Shown here: positions 1 to 64,000 of the stretch, one piece after another
How positions within the stretch are numbered: position 1 is the first letter of the stretch
Layout: every line of letters starts with the position of its first letter
Source: Lytechinus pictus
Lineage: Eukaryota
Length of the DNA: 64,000 nt
NCBI RefSeq assembly: GCF_037042905.1
Contig: NC_087251.1
Span: 21,888,001 to 21,952,000 of the forward strand
Direction: 5' to 3'
Notes under the pieces: generated by a model
Databases searched by the model: none
The model's input: the letters and a program-made list of their open reading frames with translations, nothing else
Told to the model about the DNA's origin: nothing
Position numbers and translations under genes: made by a program

Positions 1-529
1 CACCATCCTTAGGCTCCTCTGCTCATCAGCATTTCAGAACGTCGTGACATTTTGATACATCCACAAGAGGAGTTGGAGTCCTGATTGATTTGTCGTAGAA
101 TGTCGGGAAGAGATTGATTCATGAGAGTTTGAAATACAGAGAACTGATTGATTCTATAGAGAAATATGTGATATATGTCATTCAGCTTAATGCAATGTAG
201 AATGAGCCAAACATTTTCAGAGGGCTAAACATGGCGTATCGAGCAAAATTTTTTAAAAGCTACGAGCAAGTAAAAAACTTGACCTTTTTCATAAAAAACA
301 TGAATTTTGTGATAGATTGTGACATAATAATATAACAATTAACATATACCATATTTTACCCTTTTTCCCTTTTCCTACTGTGCATATGAAAGAAAACGTA
401 ATGCTTGAATATTGTCCCATAATGTGTTCAGAATCATGAAATACAGGACAAAATGGCATCCCTGACATGGTCGTGGGACACGGGACAAATTGCTGAAATA
501 CAGAAATGTCTCTTGAAATCTGGGACATA

Positions 530-676
530 TGGGGAGCGTTTCATCAACATTTTTGTCCAACAAGTTGTCAGGTCGGACAACTTTCCTTGGTGTTGATTGG
601 CTAAGACGCTCTGTTACCCTGGATGGGACTTGTCGGATAAAACATCTGACAAGTCCTTTCATGAAACGTTCCCCTG
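530..676. mobile_element. Short MITE with GGGGAGCGTTTCAT-type TIRs
   Basis: ggggagcgtttcat (531) is inverted to atgaaacgttcccc (661-674); internal gattggct; related copy at 55550-55654. Confidence 0.7.
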
Positions 677-1156
677 GTCAACCTGCTTGAGAGTGACCTT
701 GACATTTGCATGATTTTCAGCTCACATCCTAGGGCTCTTCAGCATTCATGAGATGAAGATTGTAAATGCTGTTTGTAGATTGCATTAGTCCGACCCGCCT
801 CACTTACGCTGCCAGTGACACAAATAAGGTTTGTTCTGCATAATGTAAAAGTGGTAATTTCTTTTAAGTTTGAACTATTGGCTTTTGAAGGTAAGAAAAA
901 AAAAGAAACATAGTAAATAATATTGTTTATCAATATTAGCCCAGACTTATGGATTAGTCTTTGTGTTGGGAGAAGCCACTCATTTATATCAATGTAAAGC
1001 AAATAAATGGCATATGTTGACAGTATGCACGATTGGTGTTTCTGCTCATACTCATAAATAATTCATGCTCTTTTTGTTTTGCCAGAAAACACTCATTCTG
1101 TTTTGTTGGTAGGCAAGTTTGCTCTTAATCACTCTTCAGAATGGGAAATAACTTTA

Positions 1157-1436
1157 AGGCCTGGTTCCACTGGCCGACAGACACAAAACGTATTCATAAC
1201 AGATACAGCGGACAAGCAAAATTTCAGGATGGCTCTATCCGTTTTCATCCACTCTAGACAATGGACAAAACGGGCGAACAATGAAATCTCAGTGGACGGA
1301 TGCTTGATGGCTATAGAGTGTATGAAACACGTATGCAAAGAGTACACAACGGAAACATAACGTTTTCCAGCGGATGGCAAGATTTCTTTCCGTTTTACAT
1401 CCTCTCTGCATCTGTAAGTGCAGTGGGACCAAGCCT
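1157..1436. mobile_element. PIF/Harbinger-like MITE
   Basis: TIRs aggcctggttccactg / cagtgggaccaagcct, with TTA on both sides (1154-56, 1437-39); internal short acgga/tccgt repeats. Confidence 0.8.
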
Positions 1437-1524
1437 TTACCTTCATCCCATATCCTTGCTGAAATTCTACTTACATGTAACAATTGGGAGTGGATTATAT
1501 GGACAAAGTCGTGATTTCAATATA

Positions 1525-1748
1525 ATGATAATTGTACATTTATGTTGCAGAATTTCTATATGTATATACTCAACTGCGCATTACAATAATATTATTATTA
1601 CCCTGGCTATAGCCGTATTATCTACAGGCGCTCTGGCATTCGAGGATTTGTTTCCTACTGGGTACCCATTCACCTCACCTGGGTTGAGTGCAACACAATG
1701 TGGGTGAATTTCTTGCTGAAGGAAAACATGCGATGGCTGGGGAATCAT
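1525..1748 (-). mobile_element. 5'-truncated tRNA-derived SINE
   Basis: Minus strand reads gattccccagcc (B-box remnant) ...ccttcagcaagaaattcacccacattg...caacccaggtgaggtgaatgggtacc, a core resembling metazoan SINE central domains, then an AT-rich tail. Confidence 0.65.
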
Positions 1749-2068
1749 ATTTAATGTCTCGTATTTCTTTGACTTTGTACACAAAATGTTGCAAACCTTT
1801 GTTGCTCTATTATTGACAATATATTAACACTCTTATCAAGTGTTGGTAGCAAAAAATGTTGATCTGAATCTGATGAAATATAGTGCCATACTGTCTGCCT
1901 TGAATACCAGTGCATGATCATTTCACTCATGATTTCTGGTAAATTGTAACATTTTTCCTGAAATTCAAGTGATTTCTTACCAACATGTCAGTGGGCATGT
2001 GATGTAAAAAAAAACAATTAGATTATGAGTTATTTGGCGAAGACATCTTTCCTTTGTTTTAAAGTTAA

Positions 2069-2914
2069 CTCTGCCCGCCACGGACGACTCGGGGCACATA
2101 CAGCGGACTGCCAACGACGACTCAAGTCACAGTTCGCACACAATGCATATACGGAACGCATTTAATTGTAATTGTGTGCACACACATACAATAGCGACGC
2201 GTGTATTGCATTGTTTATGAATCTAGCTTTCGTGTTATAGCTTTCGCTTACGTTGTTTACATAGAGATTTTTCGCGTAAAATTGGGTTTTTTGAACTGCT
2301 TTAGGATATATTTCGATGAGCTTTCAATAGCTTGCACTGCTTTCCTTGTAATAAAAGAATGATACAAATTGCCACCTCCCTATAACAGTAAGGGGATCAA
2401 AGTATCAATAGACGGGGAGTCTCCCAGGACCGGAAGTCTATTGAGAAGTAGCCAGGGACAATTTCAATAGAAGAGTTTAGTTCATTGTCAGTTTACTCTT
2501 TTTGAATGCCCCATTTCAATCCTAAACTGCTTAGCTCATAATGACCATAAAGACATGGATTTGGTATGTAATGAAAGCTAAAGAACACATCTTTTCAATG
2601 GACTAATTTAGAAATTTAATCTTCATTAGGAAGTATTGAATATAAGAGGTATAAAATCCCCTCCTAAACGAAAAATTTGAAACAGAATGTAAAGTTAAAA
2701 TTCTCAAAGTCTATGATTTTATACATAGCAAAAATGATACCATTGGCAAGAATATTCATTTCTCTAAAACTTTGCTACACAATTTTTTTCAATACGACAA
2801 ACCAGTAAAAAGTTATTGCGAGTTGAATAAGACAGTGCACGCAAACCCCCTCTGAATGTGGCACCCCAAAATTAATGTGGCGCAGGGGGGATAGTGTACG
2901 TGGCGGGCAAAGAG
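2069..2914. mobile_element. Non-autonomous piggyBac-like DNA transposon
   Basis: TTAA at 2065-68 and 2915-18; TIRs ctctgcccgccacg / cgtggcgggcaaagag; no transposase ORF. Confidence 0.8.
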
Positions 2915-4446
2915 TTAAGAAATGAACATGTCATGTCTATATCAATTGAGATACATGTGATTTTTTTTTCCACCTCTCATCAATTGATGCAAAAAAAATC
3001 ACAAGATCTTTAATTTTAAACTTTGCCCTCAAATGTATCATATATTTCAACCTCTACATCTTTTATTCATGATTAATCTAAAGATGCCTTTCCCTTTGAG
3101 AGTATTCTGAAAATAATATTCATTCAGAATGAATTGGGAGAAACAACAACTAATGGTTGAAATTCCAGTGACGTTAGAGATTTATATTTGATTTTTGCTG
3201 AAAGTGGCTTTATAACTCAGATTATTAGCAAAGAATGCAGTCAATTTACTACATTAATCCACTTGGCTTCTTCATATTTGCAGTGAACTTGTGCCGTAAT
3301 GGTATCCCCCTATCAAAAGGCAGCACTGATGATGGCACAATAAGTATGAGGGAGTATTAATTTTGGGTCATAATACAGTGTAATAGTCTTATTGGGTTTG
3401 AACAGTTTTGGAACCAGGAAGGGGTGGGGGGGGGTCAAAGGGGCCTTATTTACATCCAGTTTAGATGACATTTTCAAAATCATGCTTGTATGATTTTCTT
3501 AATTCATTCAACTCAAGCTCTCCATTTGTTGTTGGCCTAGACTTGACCTTCAAATGAAAAAGATATTTTTGCTTACAAGATTACAAGGAGACATTTGTCA
3601 TTTCATTGAAATAAGGTCCCTAAATTTTATATTGTTTTACTCTATGGTATCCGGTGTGGGTGGCCGCGTATTGACAGCAATGTCAGAAGCTTTCATTCAC
3701 TTATCAACCAATCACGTTTTGTTTGTCTTCCTGTTTCAAGAGCAATGTACTTGACATTCCTCTTCAGTGTCTATCAAAAAAACTTCCCATATTCATACAG
3801 CTGATGTTGTATGATATGACATATGACCTAAAATTCTCTTTTTTTCCATTACAAGGTGTTATATGAATGGTAGTATATTCACTTATATACAGTAGTTATC
3901 TTCTTAGGTTCCATACGATGCATGCAATAATGATTACTTTATTTTGGTAAGTGTGAATGATCAAACCTCAAGGATTAGAGTATCTTTATTTTCAAAAGCA
4001 CTGTACAACTAAAATAACAGAATCCCATCCACACCCTCCACTAATGCTGTAGTTCTCATTTACTTAAGTTGTAGAACTGGTCTGGGATTTTTTTGTTGTT
4101 GCCCAGTATCAGAAATTAATTTGTTTTTTACAAGAAACCTTGATCTTTACTTTTTACATAGAACGTGTCTTTTCTTGTTAGTGTTCTTGATATGTGGTGT
4201 GGGATGATTCTTGGACTAACAAGGAATGAACTTTCCATTTCCTGAATTGCCTTTGAAATAATGTAACTCTTTCTTTTTTAAATATTTTTTTTCTTTATAC
4301 TAATTCCTTTAGCTTAAAATTAACCTTTTCTTTGAGAACATAACCTAGAATAATCGCTAGAGGGTATTCATTTGTCTCGCAATCTACTATGGTCAACAAG
4401 GAAATTCGTGATCACTCTCGCAAAAAGTGTTCACTAGCTTACAAGT

Positions 4447-4487
4447 TCACGAGCTTTCGAGTGCCGCTGCAACTCTTTATCAAGTGA
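4447..4487 (-). ncRNA. Minimal type I hammerhead ribozyme motif in the PLE pseudo-LTR
   Basis: Minus strand: ucac UUGAUAA a gag-u-ugc agcg gca-cuc GAAA gc UC guga; helix I ucac/guga, helix II gag(u)ugc/gcacuc, minimal helix III. Confidence 0.8.
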
Positions 4488-4643
4488 CGAAAATTATCTG
4501 ATACGGTAGTCTATTTATACCAATCCCCAGGACCGAACGCGGGAACAATAGGTGGGCACTGATCCGTTATGTGATTGGTCGGGCGTATATGCAAATAAGC
4601 CGGAGGTATATGCAAATACGCCGCGAGTCGGCAATATGCAAAT
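4482..4643 (-). promoter_or_regulatory. Putative Pol II promoter in the PLE pseudo-LTR
   Basis: Octamers ATGCAAAT at 4589, 4610 and 4636; CCAAT on minus at 4573-78; TATAAATA on minus at 4512-19; Inr-like TCACTT at 4482-87. Confidence 0.55.
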
Positions 4644-4664
4644 AAGACAAAATTGGCGGGCTCG

Positions 4665-5850
4665 CTAGTTTCCCGTGGGTGGGGGTTGACTAGCTGAGCG
4701 GTCCCTCGCTCGGGGCCGGGATCGGTCGGGTCGGCGTGCACTGCCAGGTAAGGGGGTATTGTGCTGTTGGATGGTTCGCATCCAGAAATTGGGGATGTCA
4801 ATCCCGCTGTCTCTGTTGAAGTTGTTAGGACAAAGACGTATACTAATAGCCTCCTTAATCCTGCGTGTATACCAATGTCTTTCTTTGGCAACGCAATGTA
4901 CACCCTTCCAATCTGGGTGGTGTTGCTTCTCCCAAGCATGTTCTGCCACCGCGGATGTGTCGGTTCGCTGTAACCGAACATCGGGCTTGTGTTCAGAAAT
5001 GCGTTCAATTATCGGTCGGGCTGTTTCACCGATGTAAGACCCGTCACATCCCTGGCAAGGAATATTGTATACTACGCCATCACGTCTGTGATCAGGGATG
5101 GGGTCTTTGGGGTGCACAAGCTGTTTGTGTAGGGTGGTGTCCGAGCGGAAAACCGTTCGGATACCGTGACCTTCTAATCGGCGTTTGAGTTGTGGTGAAA
5201 GACCATCTATGTATGGCAAGACTGTGCAAGTCTTGAAAACCTTCTGATCCCTTGGCGGTTGTTTGTTCTTGAAAGTGTTCTCGATAAAACGGCGTGGGTA
5301 GCCGTTGCTGTATAAGGCGCCACGTATGTGTGCTCTTTCTTTCGGGAGTTCAGGTGGGTGAGTTATAAGACGTGCTGCTCTGTCGAACAGGCATTTAACA
5401 AGACCCTTCTTGACTGATTTGTCATGATGAGAATCATATGGAATGTATTGGTCTGTATGAGTGGGCTTGCGGTAGACAGAGGTGGAGAGTTTCCCGCCCT
5501 CATGTCTTTGGACTAGCGTGTCAAGGAATGCTAATTTCCCTCCTTGCTCAGTCTCCAGAGTGAACTGGATGGACGGTTGCTGGCTATTCATGTATGCGAG
5601 TAGGCTGTCCGTTTTGGAACTATTTACAATTATGAAAGTGTCATCGACATATCTCTTCCACACCTGAGGGCGGCATGTGGGAGGACACTTGGGCAAGGCG
5701 TTCTGTTCAAACCTTCCATATATAGGTTAGCCACAACCGCTGAGACTGGGCTACCCATCGCTGCTCCTTCTGTTTGCTCATAGAAAGAGCCTCTGTACAG
5801 AAAATATGTGGATCTGAGGACGAACTCCAGGAGTTCGGCTATTTGTTCGG
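4665..5850 (-). pseudogene. Penelope-like reverse transcriptase (C-terminal half) + GIY-YIG endonuclease, one frameshift
   Basis: Motifs GAAMGSPVSAVVANLYME, WKRYVDDTF, LAFLD, VYRKPTHTDQY and GVVYNIPCQGCDGSYIGET...R..EH; ORFs 5630-5863 and 4665-5696 join if a 1-bp deletion near 5712 is restored (ME-x-FEQNALPKC). Confidence 0.95.
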
Positions 5851-8458
5851 CGAGAGTGATCACGAATTTCCTAGAAAGCTAGTGAACACTTTTTGCGAGA
5901 GTGATCACAAATTTCCTTGTTGACCATAGTAGATTGCGAGACAAATGAATACCCTCTAGCGATTATTTCATTCCGCAATAATGAACCTATTTAGTATAAC
6001 CTAGAATAGTTTATAGAAAATTGCAAGATTTCATTCTTATATGTGGGCCATCCTGGGAAAGTGGGTATTATAGGTGAAATTTTGGATTTTGGTTTTTTTA
6101 TGTTTTCTGGTACATGGACACATGTACAATGTGTATACAAAATATTAGAGTCTAATTCATATTTAAATTAGAGATATGGCCAATTGAATCAGGGGTACCC
6201 CCCCCCCCCCTGCCTGGCTGTGTGGGTCGTCATGGTAGTCGGGCTTATTATTAATCTTTTCATGATAAGGAAATGTTGGTTCTTTTGTAACGCCCAACAT
6301 ACCTGGCATAGGCGAGGTGATCTTTTGTAGTGCAGACATAATTTTTATATATACACAGCTAGGCGAATACAATAAAACAAATTATTCTACATATTCAACC
6401 ACACCCACACTAGAACCCACACCCACACACTCACATTACATGCAAAAAAAAAACCCTTATGGAGACTATTTGTCATACTATATATAGTTCGTCATAGCGC
6501 GTAGTTTTAACATGGGAGGAGGTTCCCAGATCCAATGACCAGGGGCAGATGGTGTTGGGTTATTCATCTGATTTTTTTGTTGTTGGGGGGGGGGGGGGCA
6601 GCTTATCATTTTTTTTTGGGGGGGGTGCCCACCCCCACAGGCGCCGCAGAACATTTTTTTGAAAATGGGAGGGGCTGTCCATGCAAAAGAAAAAAAATCA
6701 CAATCAAATGGTAATTTTTTACATGTTTATACATGCGTTCTGGGGAAAAAAAAGGGGGCCAAAGCCCCTGCCCACCTCCATCCTAGATTTGTCCCTGCCC
6801 TTAACCCCCCCCCAAAAAAAAAGACACCACCTTGCTGTTTGTCCATACTTCACTTTCTCTCAAAGTAAAATCTAAAAAAAAAATCATGCTTAAGCTTTGG
6901 AAAATAACCACAAACAAAATTCAATTTTGCAAAACCAAGTTTTTTTCGGTGGCAATACACAATAGTGAAAAGCTGATGCGAGCTACATTTCATAAAGATT
7001 TAATATGACAGCAACTCTTGATGAAATATCAACTTTCATTGAACTAGCAAATCAGGAAGCAGAAGGTTCACTGTTTTCATGGTAGTTTTCATTCGAGCAA
7101 GGGATCATATCAACATTTAATGAAATGGGCCACATTTGGTTTATTTTTAGGGATGGGGTAGTCATGAAAATATATTTCACAAATTGCTGCCAAATTATCT
7201 GGATCACTGAAGGATTTTTTTTTTGGTGACTTCGTTTGTAAAGAAGAATAAAACTGTGCATAAAAACTTGGCTCCACATATTAATACGACAGGTATTATA
7301 ACTAACAAATACTCACAAATACATAGTCATCTTTTCTCTGCTACACTCTGTACACGTGTGTAATGATATGCGTTGTAAACATCTTATGCTTGAATAAAAA
7401 AATAATATCAGAGTTTAATTCTTGATATGGAAGAGACTACATACATTTACTCTCTTCTATGCAGCAGTATTAGCAAAACTCAGGAATGTGCATTGCTCTC
7501 CACTGTCCAAATTTGCACTAAAAAGGATATAAAACACGATAATCTCTCCTTAGTGTGTGTGTTTAACATTATCACAAACTTCTTAATACAGCAGCAAACT
7601 TACCACATTTCAATTTTCTACAATGACATCCTTCTAATCGGTTAGCAAACGTTACAGATTAAGTTTAATTTTTTTTATCGAAAAACTTCAGAGTTTGTTC
7701 ATTCAAAGTAAAACATTTATTCATTGTTAAATTTCCTCTCCTACCGGGGAGGCCGCTCTATTTGGAAAATCCAGTTGATAGCTTATCTGGGAGTATCTGA
7801 GAGACTATGTCAGCAGGGTTCACCAAAGGGGATAATTTTCTTCCTCTACATTGTGTGCTTTCTTCATGTTCCAGTCTTAAAAATACCACGTTCCGATGAC
7901 TCAAATCTACATGTTTGATGAATGCAATTGAAAAGTTCACCGATATTAATGTGTTATAAAAACAGTCACATTACACTCTCATTTCTTCATGATTCATGGA
8001 CATTTATCAACAACATGATATTTAAAATACATTAACTTTTCACTCTTTGGCTTTGTGTAAATGGTACTTGTATTTCTAATAAAGGTGGAAGTACTCCCTG
8101 ATGTCATATTTTTCTACCAAAAATAATAAGATTTAACTATTGCTGGGTAAAAAAAATCCCTCCAAAATTCATGAGATGTTCATATTTAAATGTTTAATTT
8201 TGATATATCACTTGCAAAAAGCTTTCTCTGCATGAGCCTTTATCCAAATTCTATATATTTTTTTCATTTTTTATTGTTTTTATCATTTTATACTTTTTAT
8301 ATTTTCCATAATTCTAGATTTCATGTACTAATAGTGGTAAAATTAATTTTGAAACAATATCTTATAAAACGGCAATTAATTCGTGAAAAACTGACATGAT
8401 AAAGTCAAAACTGGCACACTATTTCCATATAGAATATGGATAAAGCATGGAAAGCTAC

Positions 8459-8591
8459 CTGAAGCTGTGGTAATGGTGAATCCCATATCAGAGTCTTAAA
8501 GTACTTCTTGAAGGGCTGCTGTCAGCTGTATGTTGGTTCTGAGATGTCTTGTCCTCACTGCACTAATACAGTTGCTCTGTAGATCCCGTGC
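8459..8591 (-). other. Candidate internal (probably 5'UTR) exon of a minus-strand host gene
   Basis: Acceptor ttttctttcgttgtgttaaacatgttaaag|GCACGG, donor TTCAG|gtagct; higher GC than its flanks. Confidence 0.35.
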
Positions 8592-9866
8592 CTTTAACAT
8601 GTTTAACACAACGAAAGAAAACAAGGCCAATTAGTTAACAAATTTTCAGAGTTAAAGTTTATTTAAAAAAAAAACACTACTTAAGAAAAAAAACTATAAA
8701 AAAAAACAATTAAAACTATAATTTTTTTTTTTCTTCAAAAATATGTCTTTTCATTTTTTTTTTAAATATTGAATGATTTTGTGTAGAAAGTTGGCGAACC
8801 TCATGTAATGTAGCTCGACCAGATTGTAGAAAAAAATTAAAAATACCCCCCACACCCGCCCCCAAAATATATTGTTATTTTTTAATAAATTTCTTATAAA
8901 TTGTGACAATCTGTTTTCTAGTTATAATTTCGATATCATTTGCACAGCTTTGGTGAAGCTCATACCAAATAGACCCCACCCCCTCCGAAAAAAAAAAAAA
9001 ATTTGAAATCAGAAGTCCGACAAATAAGAATTTGTTAGGAGAGGGGATTTGAAAAATGTCCATAATTAACCGATTTAAAAGGGTACTCCGAGCTGAAAAT
9101 AATTTCATCAAATGTAAGCAAATGCCGCAAATTTCATCAAAATCTGATAACAACTAGATCTAAAAGGGTTTTTCATGCATTATAAAAACAGTTATATGCA
9201 CGTCTTAATAAATATTCGTTAGATGGGCTGATGATGACACCCCACTTTAACTTTACTTATAACAAAAGATGAAATCATACTTATTTTATTTGGTCATACG
9301 TGTGTGAATGATATGTCACCTTTTTTGCATTAATTAATATCTAGTCTTGGAGGGGGGGGATAGCACAAACATAATTTCATGTAACAAGGTGAGACATCTT
9401 TGCATCAGTTTGTCAAGTAAATTCATAAAAACATGCATAGAACTGTTTCACCGAAATCCATATCTTTAAATTATCATAGCTCTTTTACTCCTTGTCCAAT
9501 TTTGATTTTTTTTAATATACATTTTTTACAAACTTGTTGCATGTGATAGATTTAACTTAAATGGTTACAAGTATGTAACGAAGGCCTATCTAAGTAGGTG
9601 CAGATCTAGATCTAGTTGATAGCCTAGGCATACATAAGTTAGATCTTAAAAAGGCCGTCAAAGTCCCGGACAAATACCGCGAATCGCTGCAGCAGTCGCA
9701 TGTAATTTGACGTTTAAAGTCGTTCCTAAAAAAGCTCTCTCTCGATCGATCCACATAAACACGCAAAACAAAATTCCCATTCACGTGTTTAGTTGCCATG
9801 TTCCTTGCATCGCAATTATCAATGAATTTAACAAAACAACTCAATCTGCAACATAATTTAACTTAC

Positions 9867-10120
9867 CTTCATGGATTTCAGCCAAGGGAATTAAATTCAA
9901 TCAACATGTATCCGAACCTGCCACCAAATATATCAAGCCGATATCCACAGTTCTGAAAAATAAAAATGCGCCTGACATTTTTGTTATTTCCCGCGGGTTG
10001 TTTGTTTTGTTTTTCCTCGCGACGCGCGCCAGACAAAAGTTTGATGACACACGTACTTAAATGACGTCCTAGCGCATTTATTGTCTCTCACCAATAGTCT
10101 GGTTTTTGCGCGACGCCACA
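9867..10120 (-). promoter_or_regulatory. Candidate CpG-rich promoter and first exon of a minus-strand host gene
   Basis: Strong donor AAG|gtaagt at 9867/9866; CpG cluster (cgcggg, cgcgacgcgcgcc, gcgcgacgcc), TGACGT and CCAAT at 9990-10120. Confidence 0.45.
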
Positions 10121-10164
10121 CATATGGTTTCCCTTTGTCAAGACTTCTAATTTATTCTTCTTAC

Positions 10165-10677
10165 AGTCTGTCCTTTTACTATCAATCCGTGATGATCTAG
10201 GCAGCCTGGATGGCACTGGGCGCTGGGTCTTTATATGGACTTTCATGGTGACTTATGTTCACTACAAGGATACCTCTAGGGCATTGGCCAAGATTGAGGT
10301 TTCTTTCCGTTTTGCGTGATCTGAAGCATATATGTATATTTCCATGAACACAGGCTATTGTTCATGCACGCACACATCAGAAAATTGTCGACCCAAGACA
10401 TAGCCGGTATTAATGGGGACCTCATGGTTCTTACATGGAGCCTCTCAGATGCATTTGGTAGCTACATGGATGTACAAAGGTGAACACAGATACATCCATG
10501 TACTCCGGAATGACAAATTGAATAGGTTCAATTTTTCTCCTGGATATGCTGGTACATTAAGGATGGCACAAGATGAATAGCCGATATGAACAAGGTAATC
10601 CCGGACTGTACACGGATTAATCCGGATTGACAGTCCAAGATGATACGTGTCGCATCCGTGAAGGTGTAAAAGGGGCT
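10165..10677. mobile_element. Degraded Harbinger-like MITE
   Basis: Right end ggtgtaaaaggggct followed by TTA; internal ccggat/cacgga/tccgtg repeats; left TIR unclear. Confidence 0.4.
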
Positions 10678-11411
10678 TTAGGATTATTAAACATGTGGGA
10701 TGTTTTTTAATTCACATTTAAGACAGTAAGATTCTGGCCATGATATTCAATTGTAGAAAAAGGCTCGCTCACGCTTTTAATGTTGCTGGTGATAAATATT
10801 ATGAATATCTGAATCACCAAAGTCATAGTAGAGTGACAAACCTCAGCTGAGAGAGGTATGCAATTTAACACAGTACCACATATAAATGATTCATTCAATT
10901 TCATTTATTCATTTTCCAGTAGTGATGAAATCTTCAAAAAAAAAATACAGTCACAAGTACATTGCAAAATATTATACGAAACATACAAAAGAGCAAACAT
11001 CAAAGGAAAAATGTAAATTTATGTGATAATGAAAGTATAATGTACCTATATTTGCCTGGGTCATCCTCTTTATAATTTTTAATATACTGTTATTTTTTGG
11101 ATGAATGGCTAACCAAACCAATTATGTAATGTTTTGTTTTAGAATTGTGTTTTATAGTTATAATCATGTAATGGGAGTTAAATATTTTATGATCTACCTA
11201 AAATCTTGAAAAGAGGAGTAATATCTAACATGAAAGGTATAAAAAGCAGAGTTTTCTGTTTATTCAAATGCATATGTTTAATTTATCTTCCCAATGTGTA
11301 AATTACAACATAATCCATCTATGACTACACCACATTTGTACTTAATCATAAGTACAGAGTACATTTAAGTACATTTACTTCTCCCTTTTATTAAGTATGT
11401 TTGATTGTTAA

Positions 11412-12013
11412 AGGTCAAGTCCACCCCAGAAAAATGTTGATTGGAATAAATAGAGAAAAATCAAACTAGCATAACACTGAAAATTGCATCAAAATCGGAT
11501 GTAAAATAAGAAAGTTATGGCATTTTAAAGTTTCGCTTATTTTTCACAAAATAGTGATATGCACAACTCAGTGACATGCAAATGAGTCATTCGATGATGT
11601 CCATCACTCACTATTTCTTTTGTTTTTTATTGTTTGAATTATACAATATTTCATTTTTACAGATTTGACCATAGGGACCGACTCAACTGAACCATATAAT
11701 ATTAAACAATGCTAATTCTACATGTTCGGCGAGGAATTAATCACTGTTTCACTTGACCATGAGGAGAAAATTAGAATATATCATATTTCATATAATAAAA
11801 TTCAAAAGAAATAGTGAGTGGATGACGTCATCATTCTCCTCATTTGCATACCAACCAGGATGTGCATATAAATGTTTTGTGAAATTAATCGAAATTTTAA
11901 AATGTCATAACTTTCTTATTTTACATCCGATTTTGATGAAATTTTTAGTGTTATGCTTGTAGGATTTTTCTCTTTTTATTCAAATCAATTTTTTGTTGGG
12001 GTGGACTTGTCCT
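11412..12013. mobile_element. Kolobok-like MITE with long TIRs
   Basis: TTAA at 11408-11 and 12014-17; termini aggtcaagtccacccca / tggggtggacttgtcct; inverted similarity extends about 200 bp. Confidence 0.9.
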
Positions 12014-14220: not shown

Positions 14221-16589
14221 TTATGAGGAATGTGTTCATATCTTCTCTAGATCTGCATAACCTGCTGCATCCATCTATATTGAAGCAATTATTATTGTTA
14301 TTGTTAATCTGCAGTTTGTTTTTCTTAATTCAATTTCATTGTCAGTTACCATGCCAAATTATGATTTCAGGATGGGACAGAAAAGGGGAATTAAAGTCTG
14401 ATAAAAATAGACCCCCCCCCCCCCAAGAACAAAAAGGTCCAGGACTTTTTTGCATGAATTGACAAAATCATCACTATACTTTTCTAATTCTGATTGTTGG
14501 AATGATAGGTCAATGGTGTTCATGTTGTTGAATTGTTATTAAAAGTTTTTACATTCTTTCATTGAGTTATGCTAATTTTCCTGTAAACGAGATATCAAGG
14601 TTTACTCGCTGCTTGGAGATTATTGGGTTTTTTCTTTTATCTTCAAAACTTAATAACATAATATCTAGTTAGTTAGTGTCCATTTGCCCTCAAATGGATC
14701 TCTTGATGGTTCCATTACAATTCAGTTGACCTGTGTTCGTTTTTCAACTCCTCACAAGGTATTTCAGAAGTGAGTTTAGACAGAATTGACCATATCAAAC
14801 ACTTTAGATGAATAAGAAGGAACAGCTAATGCAACAGAGATGTACATAAAGAATGGTAAGATTGGAAGAATTTAAAAGAGAGCAGGAAAGAAAAGATTTA
14901 TTAGTTTTGTTGGTGGTGAGTCATGTTGGCAAGTGAAGAGATAGCAAATGGTGGACAAACTTCCGACAAACGAGGGAAGAATTCTGTCATTTCTGTTTAA
15001 TAAAGAGAAGATAAGGAATCATCAAATATTCATTTAATCTAGTTGGATATTGAATAGCCTGGTTGGTATTGACAATAAAGTGCTTCCCTTTTCTTTCTAC
15101 AAGTGAGTCCGCAGGTCACCATGGTACAGGAGATATTGTTATTCTGTGTGTTCCTGTGCAGTATAGCAAATGTGATTGTAACCGTACTTTGTTTTACTTA
15201 AAACTTGTATCAGGAGCTACGTCATAGCTATGAATGAAAATGCACTTAACTTAAAAAATGCCCCGGTGAAGGTCGATTCAATCCTGTTTCTGCAAGATTG
15301 TTTTGTCCATTTGGACGAATTACCAGTGATCTTACCAGAGGTAGGATTGGAACATGAATGCAATATTGATGATGTGCCGTTAATGAGCAGTTTGCTCTTT
15401 GGAAGCATTTTGTGCAGCGTTTTTCTTTGTTGTAAATTTTCACTGTCTGTTCGTGGCCAATCATATGTAAGGATTTCTGTAGCTTATAACAGTGTGTGTG
15501 TATGTGTGTGTGAAAATCACCCCCAAGCTTTGCCAATTCAACCTTCACCTACAGTTTCTCTTTCTTTTCTCTATTCTATTTTTTTTACCGGATTTGTGTT
15601 TTAATCTTGTCATACTTTGTGTTTCTTTATCGTGGATTCTTTATTTGTTTTTCTTTAGTTATCCATTATTTTTATAACAAATGTCCTCTGTCGCATTCTA
15701 TTTTTTACTGATGCAATTTTGTAAAAAAAATATTTTCTCTCTTTTTTTCCCCTTGCATTCTTGCTTTCATCACTCTCTTTTCTTTTCACTGTAATTTTCC
15801 TCCCTCTGTCACCGCTACTATATCAACTTCCAATGCATTTCTTTCTGCTTCTCTTGCATATCTCTGTCTCTCTCCACCCTCATAACCTTTCTACAACAAA
15901 CTTTTCACCAACCCCCCTCTCTCTCTCTTACCTTTAGTGAGGCTAGTTTCCTATCAAATAATGTAAAAAATAATCTACCCGGTCAAAGTATGCTCATCTC
16001 ATTGTGATGCTAAACTTGATTTGTTTGTACCAATCAACCAGCCTTAATTGTCGGTGAGAGCAAATGGGCCAAAACTGATGTTACCAAAGCGTAACATTGT
16101 GGGAGTGTCATGTATCAAAAGATAATTAACCACAGAATTAACTTAATTGATTTTTATTTATTGCAAGGAATTCATGTTGAATATTGCATAGCAATAAATT
16201 CATAACCTTTTCCATGGAAAACAAGTTTTTTTTTTAATTCACTTTCAAGTTGATAGACACCAGGAGTGGTATTCTGAACGCTGTCTTTTCTCAATATTTT
16301 ATCTTTTCTCAGAGACATGACAGAATCTGTATTCTTGTGGATGTTCTACTTTTTGTCTCTTCTCTTTAGCGCACATAACAAATATGTGGTTTCATAAATG
16401 TGCATAATCCCTATACATGTATGCAAAATATTAGTTATGACAGGGTCTAGCAGTCATAAGTTTTGTACCATAATATCATAATACCATGCCAAATTTATGT
16501 CAAGCACACAGTGATATCATTTAGATTAAGCTTATACACTCATTTTTACTATCTCGATTAGATGTTGGAAATGCTCTTTTTTTTAACAT

Positions 16590-17106
16590 AACCTCACGCA
16601 ATGTCAATAAGTTTCAGTATGCTCAGAATACAGCTGCCAGGGTTTTAACTGGTACATCAAAATATGAACACATTTCACCAATTCTCCAAAAGTTACATTG
16701 GTTGCCAATCCGGAAGCGTATAGAATTTAAAATACTTCTTCTCACTTGGAAAGTGTTAAATGGTTTGGCACCAACATATCTACAAGACCTTGTCATGCCT
16801 TATACACCAGCTCGTAGCCTAAGATCATCACACCAGCAACTGCTTAAGACTCCCAAGATACGTGTAGCATATGGTGCGCGAGCTTTCTCTGCCTCAGCAC
16901 CTTTTCTTTGGAGTAATTTGCCGTTATATTTAAGAATGATACCATCACTGGAGACCTTCAAATCTAAACTGAAGTCTTATCTTTTCTAACAGTATTAGTT
17001 ATTGGCACTTTGACACTCATCCAAACCTTCTTTCTTTCTTTTCTTGTGCGCCTCGGAATAGAATATTTCTAGATAGATAGCGCTATATAAATGCCTATTA
17101 TTATTA
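16590..17106 (+). mobile_element. 3' end of an L2/CR1-group LINE (ORF2 C-terminus + 3'UTR)
   Basis: Translation QYAQNTAARVLTGTSKYEHISPILQKLHWLPIRKRIEFKILLLTWKVLNGLAPTYL...RAFSASAPFLWSNLP...FKSKLKSYLF*; tail ends gcgctatataaatgcc(tat)n. Confidence 0.92.
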
Positions 17107-58053: not shown

Positions 58054-60785
58054 CATTGATCAATTCTCTATTATTTTTGCTACATGCATGTAAGTTCTAT
58101 TTATTAAAGCTCTTTGAACACTTGTTAGTTATTGTATACCAGAAAGCAAAGTTTCTGTCCTGATATATTTATCCACGGACCTTTGTGTACTAGGTCCATG
58201 ATCTATCCATTCCATACTTGAGAAGTGTTTTCATACTAAAAAAAAAAGAAAGAAAACAATTGTAAACATAGGGACCAAACAATTTTCTTTTGAAAGCATT
58301 TTGGTTGTAAATTCATTCCCAAATTTTAGATATTATATCACAATTTTCACATTACATGTATTTTATATATACATAATTCTGTTATATATATGTTGATGTA
58401 TATTAAGAAAGTGTCTTAACATTTTCAACTTGGAGTCACTATACGTGACCTATATTAAACATTGTATTTCACCTCTTTGTATATTAGGAAGTGGAGGTAG
58501 AGCAGACATCCGACTGAGAACCTTCCTCGAGATTAAAAGCCATGTTGAATTCAGATTATTTGCATGGCTAAAAGCATAGTCTGTTGAAAGCATTGTGTAG
58601 AAGCTTTTTGTTTGGCCCCTATTTGAAGAAGATTTCCTGGATTTGACATTTATCAAACACATTCTTCACCTCTGGTATAAAGTTGATGCAAGTTTGTTTT
58701 CTGCAAGACAGTGATGTTGATATAAGATGCTTTCAAGCTGGACATTGTTCTCAAGTCCCCAACTTTCCCAAGTACCTTGAAAGTATGAACAATCCTAATA
58801 AACACTGATTAAATTATTTTTTTCAGGGTGTTATGATTGTGTAGTGACACTAAAACAATAGTGAAAATGTTGTATGAAAACAAATGCATTAATACCCAAT
58901 TTTAGTGATGTTTGGTAGGTGACATTAATTTTTTTTTTATTCTTGTGACCACCGCCATTCTGTGTCAATGCTTGGTGTGAACAGTAATACATTTTTGTAT
59001 AAGAATATTAAAACCTGTTCCATTTATTCAGAAGGATTGCCAATTTGAATGCCATTGTTCCACAAAATTAAAAAAAAATGCATTCCAGATTCCCCTCATT
59101 TCTGATTTCTTTGAGATTCTTGTGATATAGAGCACAAGTAAGTCATTGGGTCCTAAATTATTTTTATTGGGTCAAAATTATTTTTTTGTTTGAAGTTGCA
59201 GTTGATGTCTATAGTTGTCATTAGTTGCAGTGTTTTATGCAATATACCTGTTGTCTAATCAATGAAAAGTACTTATGGATATCAAGGCACCCTACCATAT
59301 CTATTCTTTTTTTTACTTACTGACTATCAGGACATAGCAAACTAGTCAAACTTAAAAAAAAAATGTTTCAAATGGAAGGTTGGGATGGGTAGAATTACCC
59401 CTCGATACGGTAGAGGAGTGACATAAATTTTAAAAAAGTTTGGAAAATGCTGCAACTCCTCAAACCTTTTCTGCTTTTTACCCTTTATGTTTTTAGAGCT
59501 TACTTTCTGGCGGAGCTTACGTTCAATTCTCGTTCACTCCATTTATCAGTTGAGGGCAGTGTTCCTTGTTAGAATAAAAGTTCAGGTGGATGGTGGGTTC
59601 TGGCTAACACCAACTCAGTTGGTTGGGGGAAATGAGTAGCGAGAACTATCGTTCACTTCTTATCTCAAGAGGGCAGCCTTTTACATTGTATACCAGTGCT
59701 GATTAAGTTTGTTTAATGATGCAGCAGATACTTTTATTTTGCATCATGCAAAAGAGATATGCAACCAAGTATTGGATCGCATTGTAGGGAGATGAGTATG
59801 TATTGAAAGAAAACAGAAGGACAGAAAGAAGATCTATACTAATCAAGAAGCAATCATGTAGAATATGCTATTTGGTCTTATTCCACCTTGTCTAAAACCT
59901 TTTTGGTCTAATTCCATTTTGTCTATATGACCATTTTATTTGAATAATGTGTTCAAATATGGAATTAACTCCTGTTTATATTAATCTGATTTACAGTTAG
60001 GTGTTGCCTCTTTTTGTCTTTGGCACCATAACTAAAACCCTTTGCATTTTAGCAGGAATCTTGCTTGCCATCCTACACAGCAGCTTTCTCACATTCCTCA
60101 TGGTTATTCTTTGCTGAAATAGACATGCCTTCATTTTTTTTGGTGGTACCTTATATACCCAAGTGTTCTAAAACCAAGTTTGTGTAAAATTTATTGATAA
60201 TTAGTAATTCATAGGCCAAGTGGTCATTAGATAGGAAAAGCTATAGATTAAATGGCAATTAGACTATTTGATAATAAGACCAGTTGGGCAATGGACCAAA
60301 ATAATGACCAGACCAAATTAATAGTAAACCAAGTGGAATTTGACAAAGCTTGTTAACCTACCTATGAATGATACCATATAGCTATAAACCACTGCAATCA
60401 ATAGTGTGCTGTTGCTAATCATGATTGCTGCCCTCTACTGTGCATGTATGAAAGGTAATGAGCTCGTGCATTCTGATTGGATGAAAGTTTTTTTTTCCTC
60501 ATTTGTCTATTAAAATCACAGGATGTTTTAGACCTCAATTTTCCCTCCTCCAACCTTCATTAAAAAAGAGAACATATTATAGCTCTTACATAATTCCCCA
60601 TCAATTATTTTATTGTTTTCATATTAATTTTGAAGAACTACCATCAATGTGTCATGATATAAATATATGCAATCTAGTTGTAATTCTTTATTACATAGTT
60701 TAATATGAACTTTAGACTAATGTCAATAATAATATTTTTTTAATTTATTTTTTTAATATGTGAGATGACACTGAATTGACCCAGG

Positions 60786-63173: not shown

Positions 63174-64000
63174 AGACCCCTGTTACATCTGAGAGATTCT
63201 CTACCTTGGGCGGGCCCGGGGCCTACCTCGGGTCGGAAAGAAATCAGATGTAAACATCCCAAACCTACCTCGGGCCACCTTTTAGCGAACCTATACCCGA
63301 GACCACATCCAGAGGTAGTCTTGGATAGGTATCGGGCCGGTCCCGGTCCACCGATTCGTAGATGTAAACGCGCACAAGCTTTCGAACCTATCTCGGTCCG
63401 TTCGCCAGCTGTCAAATTACGTCATAGCGCGCGCTATCCCCTCCCCAGCCCCGTTGTTCTTCGAATGTTTTGCGGCATGCGACATGTGAATTGTGATTGA
63501 TAAAGTCTTTGATTTGAGTGGAAAGAAGGAATCTTCAGCTGCAAACTCCTCGTTCACCACTCGTTGCCAGAAATGCCCCGATCGGTACTTGCTCCAGAGT
63601 ACCCTGTCGCTTGTGCAGCCGTAGCTCATCGCCATTATCAACATCATCGCCATCCTTATTCTCTGCCGACGCCTTTCCTCAAACCTTCTCACTCTGATTG
63701 CCCTTTCCCGAAGAAATTGCTTACGACTTTCCCGAATCAGGGAATACACATTAATATTCTTCATAATGTATTCGAGGGTCTGTACTTTTCGGGGTTTTAA
63801 ATATCTAGAAATAACAACTAACGTACACTATCCGATCGTAACCAAATGGCGAGCTAGCAGCCGACAAGTGTAACGAAATGTAAACAACTTCAATTAGCGC
63901 CCGCAAATTATTCAGAGCCTAGATCAAAAGCGCCCTTTGGTGTCAGCAATCGGATACCGCTCGAAACCGTACCGATAGGGAAGGAAATGAACGATGTGAT
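63174..64000 (-). mobile_element. Internally deleted PIF/Harbinger transposon running off the window edge
   Basis: Terminal gacccctgttacatctg with subterminal gatgtaaac and ctcggg repeats; carries a transposase N-terminus. Confidence 0.7.
63530..63764 (-). pseudogene. N-terminal fragment of a Harbinger (HARBI1-like) DDE transposase
   Basis: Arg-rich helix, hydrophobic stretch, then RVLWSKYRSGHFWQRVVNEEFAAED, resembling the R..W...RS..W motif that precedes NFRM in Harbinger transposases; similarity stops there. Confidence 0.7.

What the first reader, a model, noticed from the sequence alone, without database searches (positions are those of the whole stretch)
4447..4487. Minimal hammerhead ribozyme with compensatory C3U/G8A core in the Penelope pseudo-LTR
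Seen: the minus strand reads ucac-UUGAUAA-a-gagUugc(agcg)gcacuc-GAAA-gc-UC-guga. Helices I and II pair, the CUGAnGA box is replaced by UUGAUAA (3-8 pair kept as U-A), one extra A precedes helix II, and helix III is reduced to the palindrome AGCU. Established: PLE pseudo-LTRs carry minimal type I hammerheads thought to cleave efficiently as dimers. Inference: cleavage after the C at + coordinate 4451 defines an RNA end of the element. A standard CUGAnGA search would miss this motif.
Basis: partly seen in the sequence, partly recalled or inferred. Interest (0 to 1): 0.8.

Follow-up and report, generated by a model that had tools for sequence, protein, structure and literature searches.

The report
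Known hammerhead variant in Penelope retrotransposon
This is a real but already described kind of tiny self-cleaving RNA motif, carried by hundreds of copies of a Penelope-type jumping gene, and its cut site does not mark the ends of the inserted copies.

Summary
The motif is real: a minimal type I hammerhead with a U3-A8 core pair, minus strand 4487-4447, in the 3' pseudo-LTR of a 5'-truncated Penelope/Poseidon-type element. U3-A8 is family-wide (520 genome matches, 0 in the control; 70 of 70 copies inspected; no C3-G8 copy). Two more U3-A8 families and 1,045 canonical matches lie in the same genome, and eight families co-vary at the 3:8 pair and in all helices. The variant is published: Cervera & de la Pena 2014 report U3-A8 minimal hammerheads in Schistosoma PLEs, Perreault 2011 natural U3-A8 cores. 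Extra: three related families have a TATA box 35-37 nt before nucleotide 3, so the ribozyme probably opens the mRNA and cleavage would remove the cap (inferred, untested). The scan found PLE hammerheads before on other DNA of this genome.

The parts
4447..4487 (-). Minimal type I hammerhead motif with U3-A8 core pair; predicted scissile bond between C17 (4451) and G1.1 (4450)
   Evidence: family-wide; cross-family covariation. Cleavage itself is not shown.
4452..4455 (-). Palindrome AGCU (positions 15.1, 15.2, 16.2, 16.1): too short to close helix III in one molecule, pairs with a second molecule in the dimer model
   Evidence: GC/CG swap at the two middle positions across families (GC 6, CG 2 of 8)
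4513..4519 (-). TATA box (TATAAAT), first T 36 nt before U3; predicts a transcription start at about 4488, one base before helix I
   Evidence: TATA at -36, -37, -35 in families A, B, C; the 30-31 nt TATA-to-start distance is recalled textbook knowledge; start not mapped
4589..4643 (+). Three octamer motifs (ATGCAAAT) at 4589, 4610, 4636, in the pseudo-LTR upstream of the TATA box
   Evidence: 3 of the window's 15 matches lie within these 55 nt; 7.7 expected in 64 kb; the name 'octamer/POU site' is recalled
4349..4446 (-). Rest of the pseudo-LTR and short tail end; lacks one unit of the 45-nt tandem duplication that most copies carry; ends at the first of the family's two 3' end clusters
4665..5850 (-). 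3' half of the PLE ORF (end of RT, GIY-YIG endonuclease with CCHH residues); open for 353 codons 5726-4665, homology to the family continues to 5850; 5'-truncated, 94% identical to an intact 823-aa copy
5850..5995 (+). Inverted short copy of the pseudo-LTR end with the long tail (+62 to +209 from U3), without the hammerhead, including the family's ATG
4340..4352 (+). Left copy of an 11-13 bp target-site duplication
   Evidence: (family D3)
5996..6008 (+). Right copy of the 11-13 bp target-site duplication
   Evidence: (family D3)

Best explanation
An ordinary PLE minimal hammerhead (min-HHR) of the published U3-A8 type, inherited by every copy of a young Penelope/Poseidon-type family. In tandem, expressed copies the upstream pseudo-LTR is the promoter (octamers, TATA) and the ribozyme lies at or very near the 5' end of the element's RNA, 160 nt before the ATG. 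It cannot close helix III alone, so it cleaves after C17 slowly and only when two RNAs pair through their AGCU palindromes and/or the element's protein helps folding. New genomic copies are made from uncleaved RNA: their 3' ends are set by internal reverse-transcription starts in the tail, their 5' ends by truncation. The copy in this window is a dead, 5'-truncated passenger with a single hammerhead. Shown: anatomy, family-wide U3-A8, covariation, positions of genomic ends, sense RNA over the pseudo-LTR. Inferred: transcription start, dimer or protein dependence, cleavage itself.
For: Anatomy equals the published min-HHR consensus: extra base between 9 and 10.1, G10.1-C11.1, palindromic 15.2-16.2, long or bulged helix II, U3-A8 variant (PMC4209133). 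U3 and A8 in 70 of 70 distinct copies in loci L001-L060; 0 exact C3-G8 copies and one single revertant at <= 1 mismatch. Eight families: 93% of cells paired, 9 of 11 pairs with changes on both sides, 3:8 pair CG in 5 and UA in 3, 0 of 500 shuffles reach the covariation score, slid controls 25-50% paired. Non-CpG variation among copies: 0.28% in the motif against 1.0% at the ORF end, 1.3% in the tail and about 6% in the adjacent promoter (loci partly chosen by likeness to this region). 77 of 87 alignment 3' ends at +172..184 or +208..211 from U3, none at the cut (+32), RNA reads run into foreign sequence at the same two places (2930/2931 and 2961-2965 of L043); this is the two-start tail of the anole PLE, whose hammerhead was dispensable for insertion and needed protein to cleave (PMC11167929). 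U3-A8 cores are natural and active in vitro in other hammerheads (PMC3088659 passage).
Against: No cleavage assay and no RNA end at the cut site. The nearest-neighbour model does not favour the active double hammerhead (-17.5 kcal/mol) over a helix II-swapped duplex (-25.5) or two monomers, and in RNAs starting at the predicted start helix I has only 0-35% pairing probability (the model ignores tertiary contacts and protein). The transcription start is predicted, not mapped; D. virilis Penelope has a TATA-less internal promoter (PMC2377424 abstract). The 8-family alignment was picked by a pattern that already demanded the boxes and, for the 3:8 pair, either CG or UA, so 100% pairing at that pair is partly built in; helices I and II were not in the pattern.
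Confidence: 0.62

Rival explanations
1. One reading: cleavage at successive hammerheads cuts unit-length RNA out of read-through transcripts (perhaps circularised), and the cut defines the RNA end used in transposition.
For: Full-length tandem copies have two hammerheads 2,867 nt apart, so unit-length products are possible; proposed in PMC4209133; 5 sense reads cross the tail-to-ORF junction, so RNA spanning pseudo-LTR and ORF exists. Sense depth rises about 7-fold in the 100-nt bin that holds both the predicted start and the cut, and the bins cannot tell the two apart.
Against: 0 of 87 3' ends at the cut; 1 of 28 copies whose homology breaks within 12 nt before the cut starts exactly at G1.1 (rows read by eye), 0 such copies in sister family B; no pile of read starts or ends at L043:2785/2786. 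A linear RNA ending at the cut would lack the tail from which the copies start. A circular template is not excluded by these data. In the anole PLE catalytic mutants insert normally in vitro.
Confidence: 0.15
2. The motif is kept as a non-catalytic element (protein-binding or dimerisation structure, or DNA start-site element overlapping the promoter); U3-A8 is tolerated because cleavage no longer matters.
For: Predicted start overlaps helix I; the 48 nt downstream are nearly as conserved (0.48%); low in vitro activity of min-HHRs, whose authors do not rule out other functions; Naiad PLEs proliferate without hammerheads (PMC8557442 passages); active dimer not favoured in the folding model.
Against: Both partners of the 3:8 pair changed together in three families while G5, A6, A9, G12, A13, A14, A15.1 and U16.1 are invariant in 8 of 8 (partly demanded by the search pattern) and N17 is never G; the 3:8 pair matters for catalysis (double change rescues).
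Confidence: 0.2
3. Chance look-alike or a decayed C3-G8 hammerhead with two private mutations.
For: Fold not better than shuffles; a loose descriptor gave one AT-rich false hit in the window at 60194; this copy is 5-6% diverged from young copies.
Against: Identical core in 70 of 70 copies and in intact 830-codon copies; no C3-G8 copy in the family; two more U3-A8 families (21 and 28 of 66 matches).
Confidence: 0.01

Closest known systems
Minimal hammerheads (min-HHR) of metazoan Penelope-like elements, including the U3-A8 variant of Schistosoma mansoni Cercyon elements (Cervera & de la Pena 2014, PMC4209133; read parts 1-2 of 4 and passages of supplement file 2; file 1 not available)
   Same: Type I topology, 4-bp helix I, extra base after A9, G10.1-C11.1, long bulged helix II, palindromic 15.2-16.2, position in the pseudo-LTR, U3-A8 core (about 1,300 hits in S. 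mansoni). Their Strongylocentrotus purpuratus(1) PLE motif has the same helix I (UCAC/GUGA) and a similar GC-AGNA-GC helix II tip with a C3-G8 core.
   Different: Other host; here U3-A8 is fixed in a young, homogeneous family with intact ORFs, whereas the Schistosoma hits were heterogeneous. The passages seen list U3-A8 only for S. mansoni. The TATA box 35-37 nt upstream is not mentioned in the parts read.
PAc (Poseidon of Anolis carolinensis) hammerhead and tail (Frangieh et al. 2024, PMC11167929; read parts 1-2 of 4)
   Same: Two clustered 3' ends about 30 nt apart downstream of the hammerhead; tandem and inverted copies; no RNA-seq ends at the cut site.
   Different: [quoted passage not shown]
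Natural U3-A8 hammerheads (Perreault et al. 2011, PMC3088659; passages)
   Same: Same compensatory core pair, stated to be active in vitro (citing Przybilski & Hammann 2007, which was not held).
   Different: Those are not described as PLE minimal motifs in the passages seen.
Small PLE hammerheads that cleave as dimers (Lunse, Weinberg & Breaker, RNA Biol 14:1499; not held; title and summary seen only in the review PMC6765202)
   Same: Diminished stem III, dimer cleavage, PLE association.
   Different: Could not check whether it lists U3-A8 or sea-urchin examples.
Type I hammerheads in 5' UTRs of chrysoviruses that drive cap-independent translation (PMC13725137; abstract only)
   Same: Type I hammerhead upstream of an ORF near the RNA 5' end.
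   Different: Viral, monomer-active, shown in fungi and plants; here only an analogy for what cleavage might do.

Membership tests
Hammerhead ribozyme (type I) | Core boxes N3-UGA-N7-N8-A9 and G12-A13-A14, A15.1-U16.1, H17, with a Watson-Crick 3:8 pair | tested here: met
   U3-A8 accepted as natural variant
Hammerhead ribozyme (type I) | Helices I and II with compensatory changes | tested here: met
   4 of 4 helix I pairs and 3 of 4 helix II pairs change on both sides across 8 families; helix I 81% paired
Hammerhead ribozyme (type I) | Intramolecular helix III | tested here: not met
   only 2 nt between 15.1 and 16.1; this absence is what defines the min-HHR subclass
Hammerhead ribozyme (type I) | Self-cleavage after H17 | not testable with these tools
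   no assay possible; RNA-seq shows no pile at the cut but the libraries are fragmented
Rfam hammerhead families | Covariance-model match | tested here: not met
   no hammerhead match at E <= 10 in window 1-12000
PLE min-HHR (Cervera & de la Pena 2014) | Extra base between 9 and 10.1, G10.1-C11.1, palindromic 15.2-16.2 | tested here: met
   (G-C in 8 of 8)
PLE min-HHR (Cervera & de la Pena 2014) | Located in the pseudo-LTR, twice in tandem copies about 3 kb apart | tested here: met
   two motifs 2,867 nt apart around an 823-aa ORF at G000:C3
PLE min-HHR (Cervera & de la Pena 2014) | Cleavage only as dimer or multimer | tested here: inconclusive
   active dimer can be drawn (-17.5 kcal/mol) but is not the predicted minimum (-25.5)
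Penelope/Poseidon clade of PLEs | One ORF with RT and C-terminal GIY-YIG endonuclease bearing CCHH | tested here: met
   RVT_1 hit E 7e-8; atlas neighbours with RVT_1, HTH_animal, GIY-YIG at score 0.97; CxxC between the GIY and YIG strands and two later His read from the translation. Pfam itself gave no GIY-YIG hit.
Penelope/Poseidon clade of PLEs | No CX2-5CxxC zinc-finger linker between RT and EN (PMC8557442 passage) | tested here: met
   no such motif in the translation between RT thumb and GIY-YIG (read by eye)
Penelope/Poseidon clade of PLEs | Partial tandems, inverted 5'-truncated copies and a 30-40 bp tail at one end | tested here: met
Penelope/Poseidon clade of PLEs | RT phylogeny with named reference elements | not tested
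   no named PLE proteins were fetched; the tree holds only families of this genome and is unresolved

The most novel reading that the evidence does not exclude
In these PLE families the hammerhead is a 5'-cap switch. A TATA promoter starts the mRNA on the first base of the ribozyme, so cleavage clips off a capped 38-nt leader 160 nt before the ATG. Because cleavage needs a second RNA (or the element's own protein), it would sense the element's own expression and either shut down cap-dependent translation and destine the RNA for decay (copy-number feedback) or switch it to cap-independent translation as in chrysovirus 5' UTRs, while uncleaved RNA remains the template for new copies. The 3:8 pair toggling between C-G and U-A among sister families would tune that rate. 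Hints: TATA at -35 to -37 in 3 of 3 related families; 11 of 47 copies with broken upstream homology start exactly at the predicted start base against 1-5 at neighbouring positions (by eye); 19 reads of a second species run into foreign sequence at the same base (L043:2748); sense-strand depth steps up 7-fold there against 2-fold for antisense. Against: the pile is weak in family B (4 of 18 rows, two independent), position 0 is also enriched (9 of 32 rows, 7 loci), and no start or cut was mapped.
Probability: 0.22. Interest if true: 0.62.

Novelty: new member of a known kind. Interest (0 to 1): 0.24.

Why it matters
As a motif it adds a further host and three families to a published variant, and it reminds annotators that CUGANGA descriptors and Rfam miss about a third of the pattern-matched minimal hammerheads in this genome (520 + 49 U3-A8 against 1,045 C3-G8 matches, different patterns). 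What PLE hammerheads do is an open question (PMC8557442). This young family with intact ORFs, natural C3-G8 and U3-A8 sister ribozymes and a clear TATA promoter directly in front of the motif is a convenient system to test it: the data already argue that the cut does not set the ends of inserted copies.

Tried and rejected
Rfam search: no hammerhead. Folding z-score: uninformative. Pfam on the window's ORF remnant: no family. PDB sequence search: nothing relevant. Related loci in metagenome contigs: none confirmed, so no cross-species DNA loci were obtained. No indexed RNA holder was listed (no evidence either way); four raw-read runs were laid instead. Tree of RT/EN fragments from five families to count origins of U3-A8: no inner branch supported; holding the U3-A8 families A and C together is not rejected (p-AU 0.22; family D, H and I left out for lack of ORF sequence), so the number of C-G/U-A switches is unknown. 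The control pattern was misplaced by two bases and returned nearly all copies (338); its first 100 rows were used only as a rough background (4-6 truncated in 12 positions). The sigma-70 promoter scan does not apply to a eukaryote. Considered and rejected: an alternative register using the G-A of 'AGAG' as G8-A9 (absent in families C and D); private double mutation; cleavage-defined genomic ends. Literature searches: 'hammerhead + Penelope + G8A' 0 papers; 'hammerhead + U3-A8' 1 paper; 'hammerhead + C3U + G8A' 1 paper, not relevant; 'Penelope + hammerhead + TATA box + transcription start' 0 papers; the 2026 retrozyme preprint has no 'TATA', 'promoter' or 'sea urchin'. The library lacks most subscription papers and two key papers were not held, so absence from print is not shown.

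Full report
Observation. Numbered as a hammerhead: helix I 5' arm 4487-4484, U3 4483 to A9 4477 with A8 at 4478, one extra A, helix II 4475-4459 (four pairs, a bulged U, two G-C pairs, loop AGCG), G12-A13-A14, the palindrome AGCU at 4455-4452, C17 at 4451 and the helix I 3' arm 4450-4447. All ten named pairs are Watson-Crick. The fold is not more stable than shuffles (z -0.45) and Rfam does not see it, so the case rests on context and comparison.

Context. The motif lies about 180 nt behind the stop of a 353-codon frame (5726-4665, minus) that is 95% identical to many genomic copies, several with about 830 open codons. One intact copy has two hammerheads 2,867 nt apart around an 823-aa ORF whose ATG is 193 nt after U3; it has an RT domain, atlas neighbours with RT, HTH_animal and GIY-YIG, CCHH residues and no zinc-finger linker (read; criteria from PMC8557442 passages), so it is a Penelope/Poseidon-type PLE by anatomy; no tree with named elements was made. 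The window's insertion is a 5'-truncated copy (4349-5850) joined to a short inverted copy without the hammerhead (5850-5995), within an 11-13 bp target-site duplication. The host is an animal with an 812-Mb genome; earlier notes call it a sea urchin, and its hammerhead families resemble the Strongylocentrotus motifs in Cervera's supplement.

Is U3-A8 a family trait? Yes. A 22-base pattern allowing either core has 520 matches (control 0); the first 100 listed are all U3-A8. In loci L001-L060, 70 of 70 distinct copies have U3 and A8. A C3-G8 version has no exact match and one single revertant at one mismatch. Among copies the motif varies at 0.28% of non-CpG positions against 1.0% at the ORF end and about 6% in the adjacent promoter (half of the loci were chosen by likeness to this region). 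Reads of a second species (run X23) show fixed differences in the ORF and tail but none in the motif among the 40 best-supported rows shown (257 more not shown).

Covariation. A generic U3-A8 pattern that excludes this family gave 66 matches (control 43): 21 belong to a family C, 28 to a family D, 1 is a double variant of a canonical family and 16 look like chance (sorted by eye). The canonical pattern gave 1,045 (control 10). One representative each of 8 families was aligned (several other canonical families listed were not fetched): 93% of cells pair, 9 of 11 pairs change on both sides, the 3:8 pair is CG in 5 and UA in 3, and the middle of the palindrome is GC in 6 and CG in 2; no shuffle of 500 reaches the score and slid controls pair 25-50%. 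The boxes and the 3:8 state were demanded by the patterns, helices I and II were not. Family B (63% protein identity to this family) is C3-G8, family C (59%) is U3-A8; the tree cannot order them.

What is known. Cervera & de la Pena 2014 (PMC4209133, parts 1-2 of 4) define the min-HHR, list every feature seen here, report U3-A8 in Schistosoma Cercyon PLEs (about 1,300 hits) and find no monomer activity and low dimer activity. Perreault 2011 (PMC3088659, passages) report natural U3-A8 cores and cite in vitro activity. Frangieh 2024 (PMC11167929, parts 1-2 of 4) show for the anole PLE that copies end at two internal RT start sites (the tail), that the hammerhead needs the protein to cleave, that a double 3/8 change partly rescues, and that cleavage is not needed for insertion in vitro. 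Lunse 2017 and Przybilski & Hammann 2007 were not held and may hold more on U3-A8. So the variant is not new.

Does the cut define an end? Of 87 alignment 3' ends inside 58 loci, 34 lie at +172..184 and 43 at +208..211 from U3 (the last class includes copies that run on into the ORF), 7 at +84 reflect the 45-nt deletion variant, 3 lie elsewhere, and none lies at the cut (+32). RNA reads leave the element at the same two places. For 5' junctions, of 28 copies whose homology breaks within 12 nt before the cut, 1 starts exactly at G1.1, 14 start 4-7 nt upstream, 3 are internal rearrangements, 9 are point or small indel variants and 1 is unclear (by eye); family B has none. Four RNA runs (6-25% of each read) show no pile of starts or ends at the cut, though fragmented libraries are a weak test.

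Where the RNA probably starts. Families A, B and C have a TATA box 36, 37 and 35 nt before nucleotide 3, and this family has three octamer motifs further upstream. With the recalled 30-31 nt spacing the start falls on a purine five bases before nucleotide 3 (window 4488). I made this prediction before testing junctions. Of 47 copies with broken homology in the 11 nt upstream, 11 begin exactly there against 1-5 at neighbouring positions, about 16 rows being variants or unclear (by eye); background further upstream is 4-6 of 100 copies over 12 positions. But position 0 is also rich (9 of 32 rows, 7 loci) and family B gives only 4 of 18 rows, two independent. In stranded runs the presumed sense depth rises about 7-fold (13 to 96, 8 to 60, 21 to 151) in the bin holding both start and cut, antisense about 2-fold; 19 reads of run X23 have foreign sequence before the predicted start base; 5 sense reads cross the tail-to-ORF junction. 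More than half of the laid reads run on into unrelated sequence, so much of this RNA is read-through of short copies. The start is thus suggested, not shown. D. virilis Penelope has a TATA-less promoter (PMC2377424, abstract and one section), and one search found no paper with TATA box, start, hammerhead and Penelope together.

Mechanism and verdict. Most likely (0.62) a conserved, slow, partner- or protein-dependent ribozyme at the 5' end of the PLE RNA, not used to set the ends of new copies; the folding model does not favour the active dimer unaided. Rivals: non-catalytic element (0.2), end-defining or circle-forming cleavage (0.15), chance (0.01). The window's own copy has one hammerhead and half an ORF and is a passenger. 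The boldest reading left open is a cap-removing switch (0.22), by analogy with viral 5' UTR hammerheads (PMC13725137, abstract only). Novelty: new member of a known kind; interest 0.24.

Noticed in passing
G000 copies listed (motif positions A13 to G15.2; window 4457-4454): 14 of 28 nearby 5' junctions start 4-7 nt before the cut, at the foot of helix II and in the palindrome, many with 1-4 nt microhomology to an inverted partner; possibly reverse transcriptase pausing at folded or dimerised RNA. Unexplained.
   Followed up: partly
G000:C11:295380-295412: A single copy of an otherwise C3-G8 family carries both U3 and A8: a possible nascent switch or a double mutation.
   Followed up: no
L070, L077, L078 (family D): Third U3-A8 family with a 6-bp helix II and AGGA loop, 28 matches; only a weak endonuclease remnant (E 3e-4) ties it to a PLE.
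   Followed up: partly
window 4464-4471 (minus strand), L062, L065: Families A, B and C share a helix II of four pairs, one bulge and GC-AGC(N)-GC tip; in family A this stretch is self-complementary and drives the predicted helix II-swapped dimer.
   Followed up: partly
window 4349-4445 against 5850-5995: The two ends of one insertion differ: the main copy has one unit of a 45-nt tandem duplication, the inverted copy one and a part; reads show both forms (joint 2800-2846).
   Followed up: partly
window 4580-4643: Three octamer motifs in 21-26 nt spacing plus a CCAAT box in the pseudo-LTR; family B has repeated CCAAT/ATTGG boxes instead.
   Followed up: no
window 16525-16989 (+): 154-codon frame that looks like the C-terminal end of a LINE (L2/CR1-like) protein; label recalled, no Pfam hit.
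   Followed up: no
window 63417-63827 (-): 136-codon frame resembling the N-terminus of a PIF/Harbinger transposase; label recalled, no Pfam hit.
   Followed up: no
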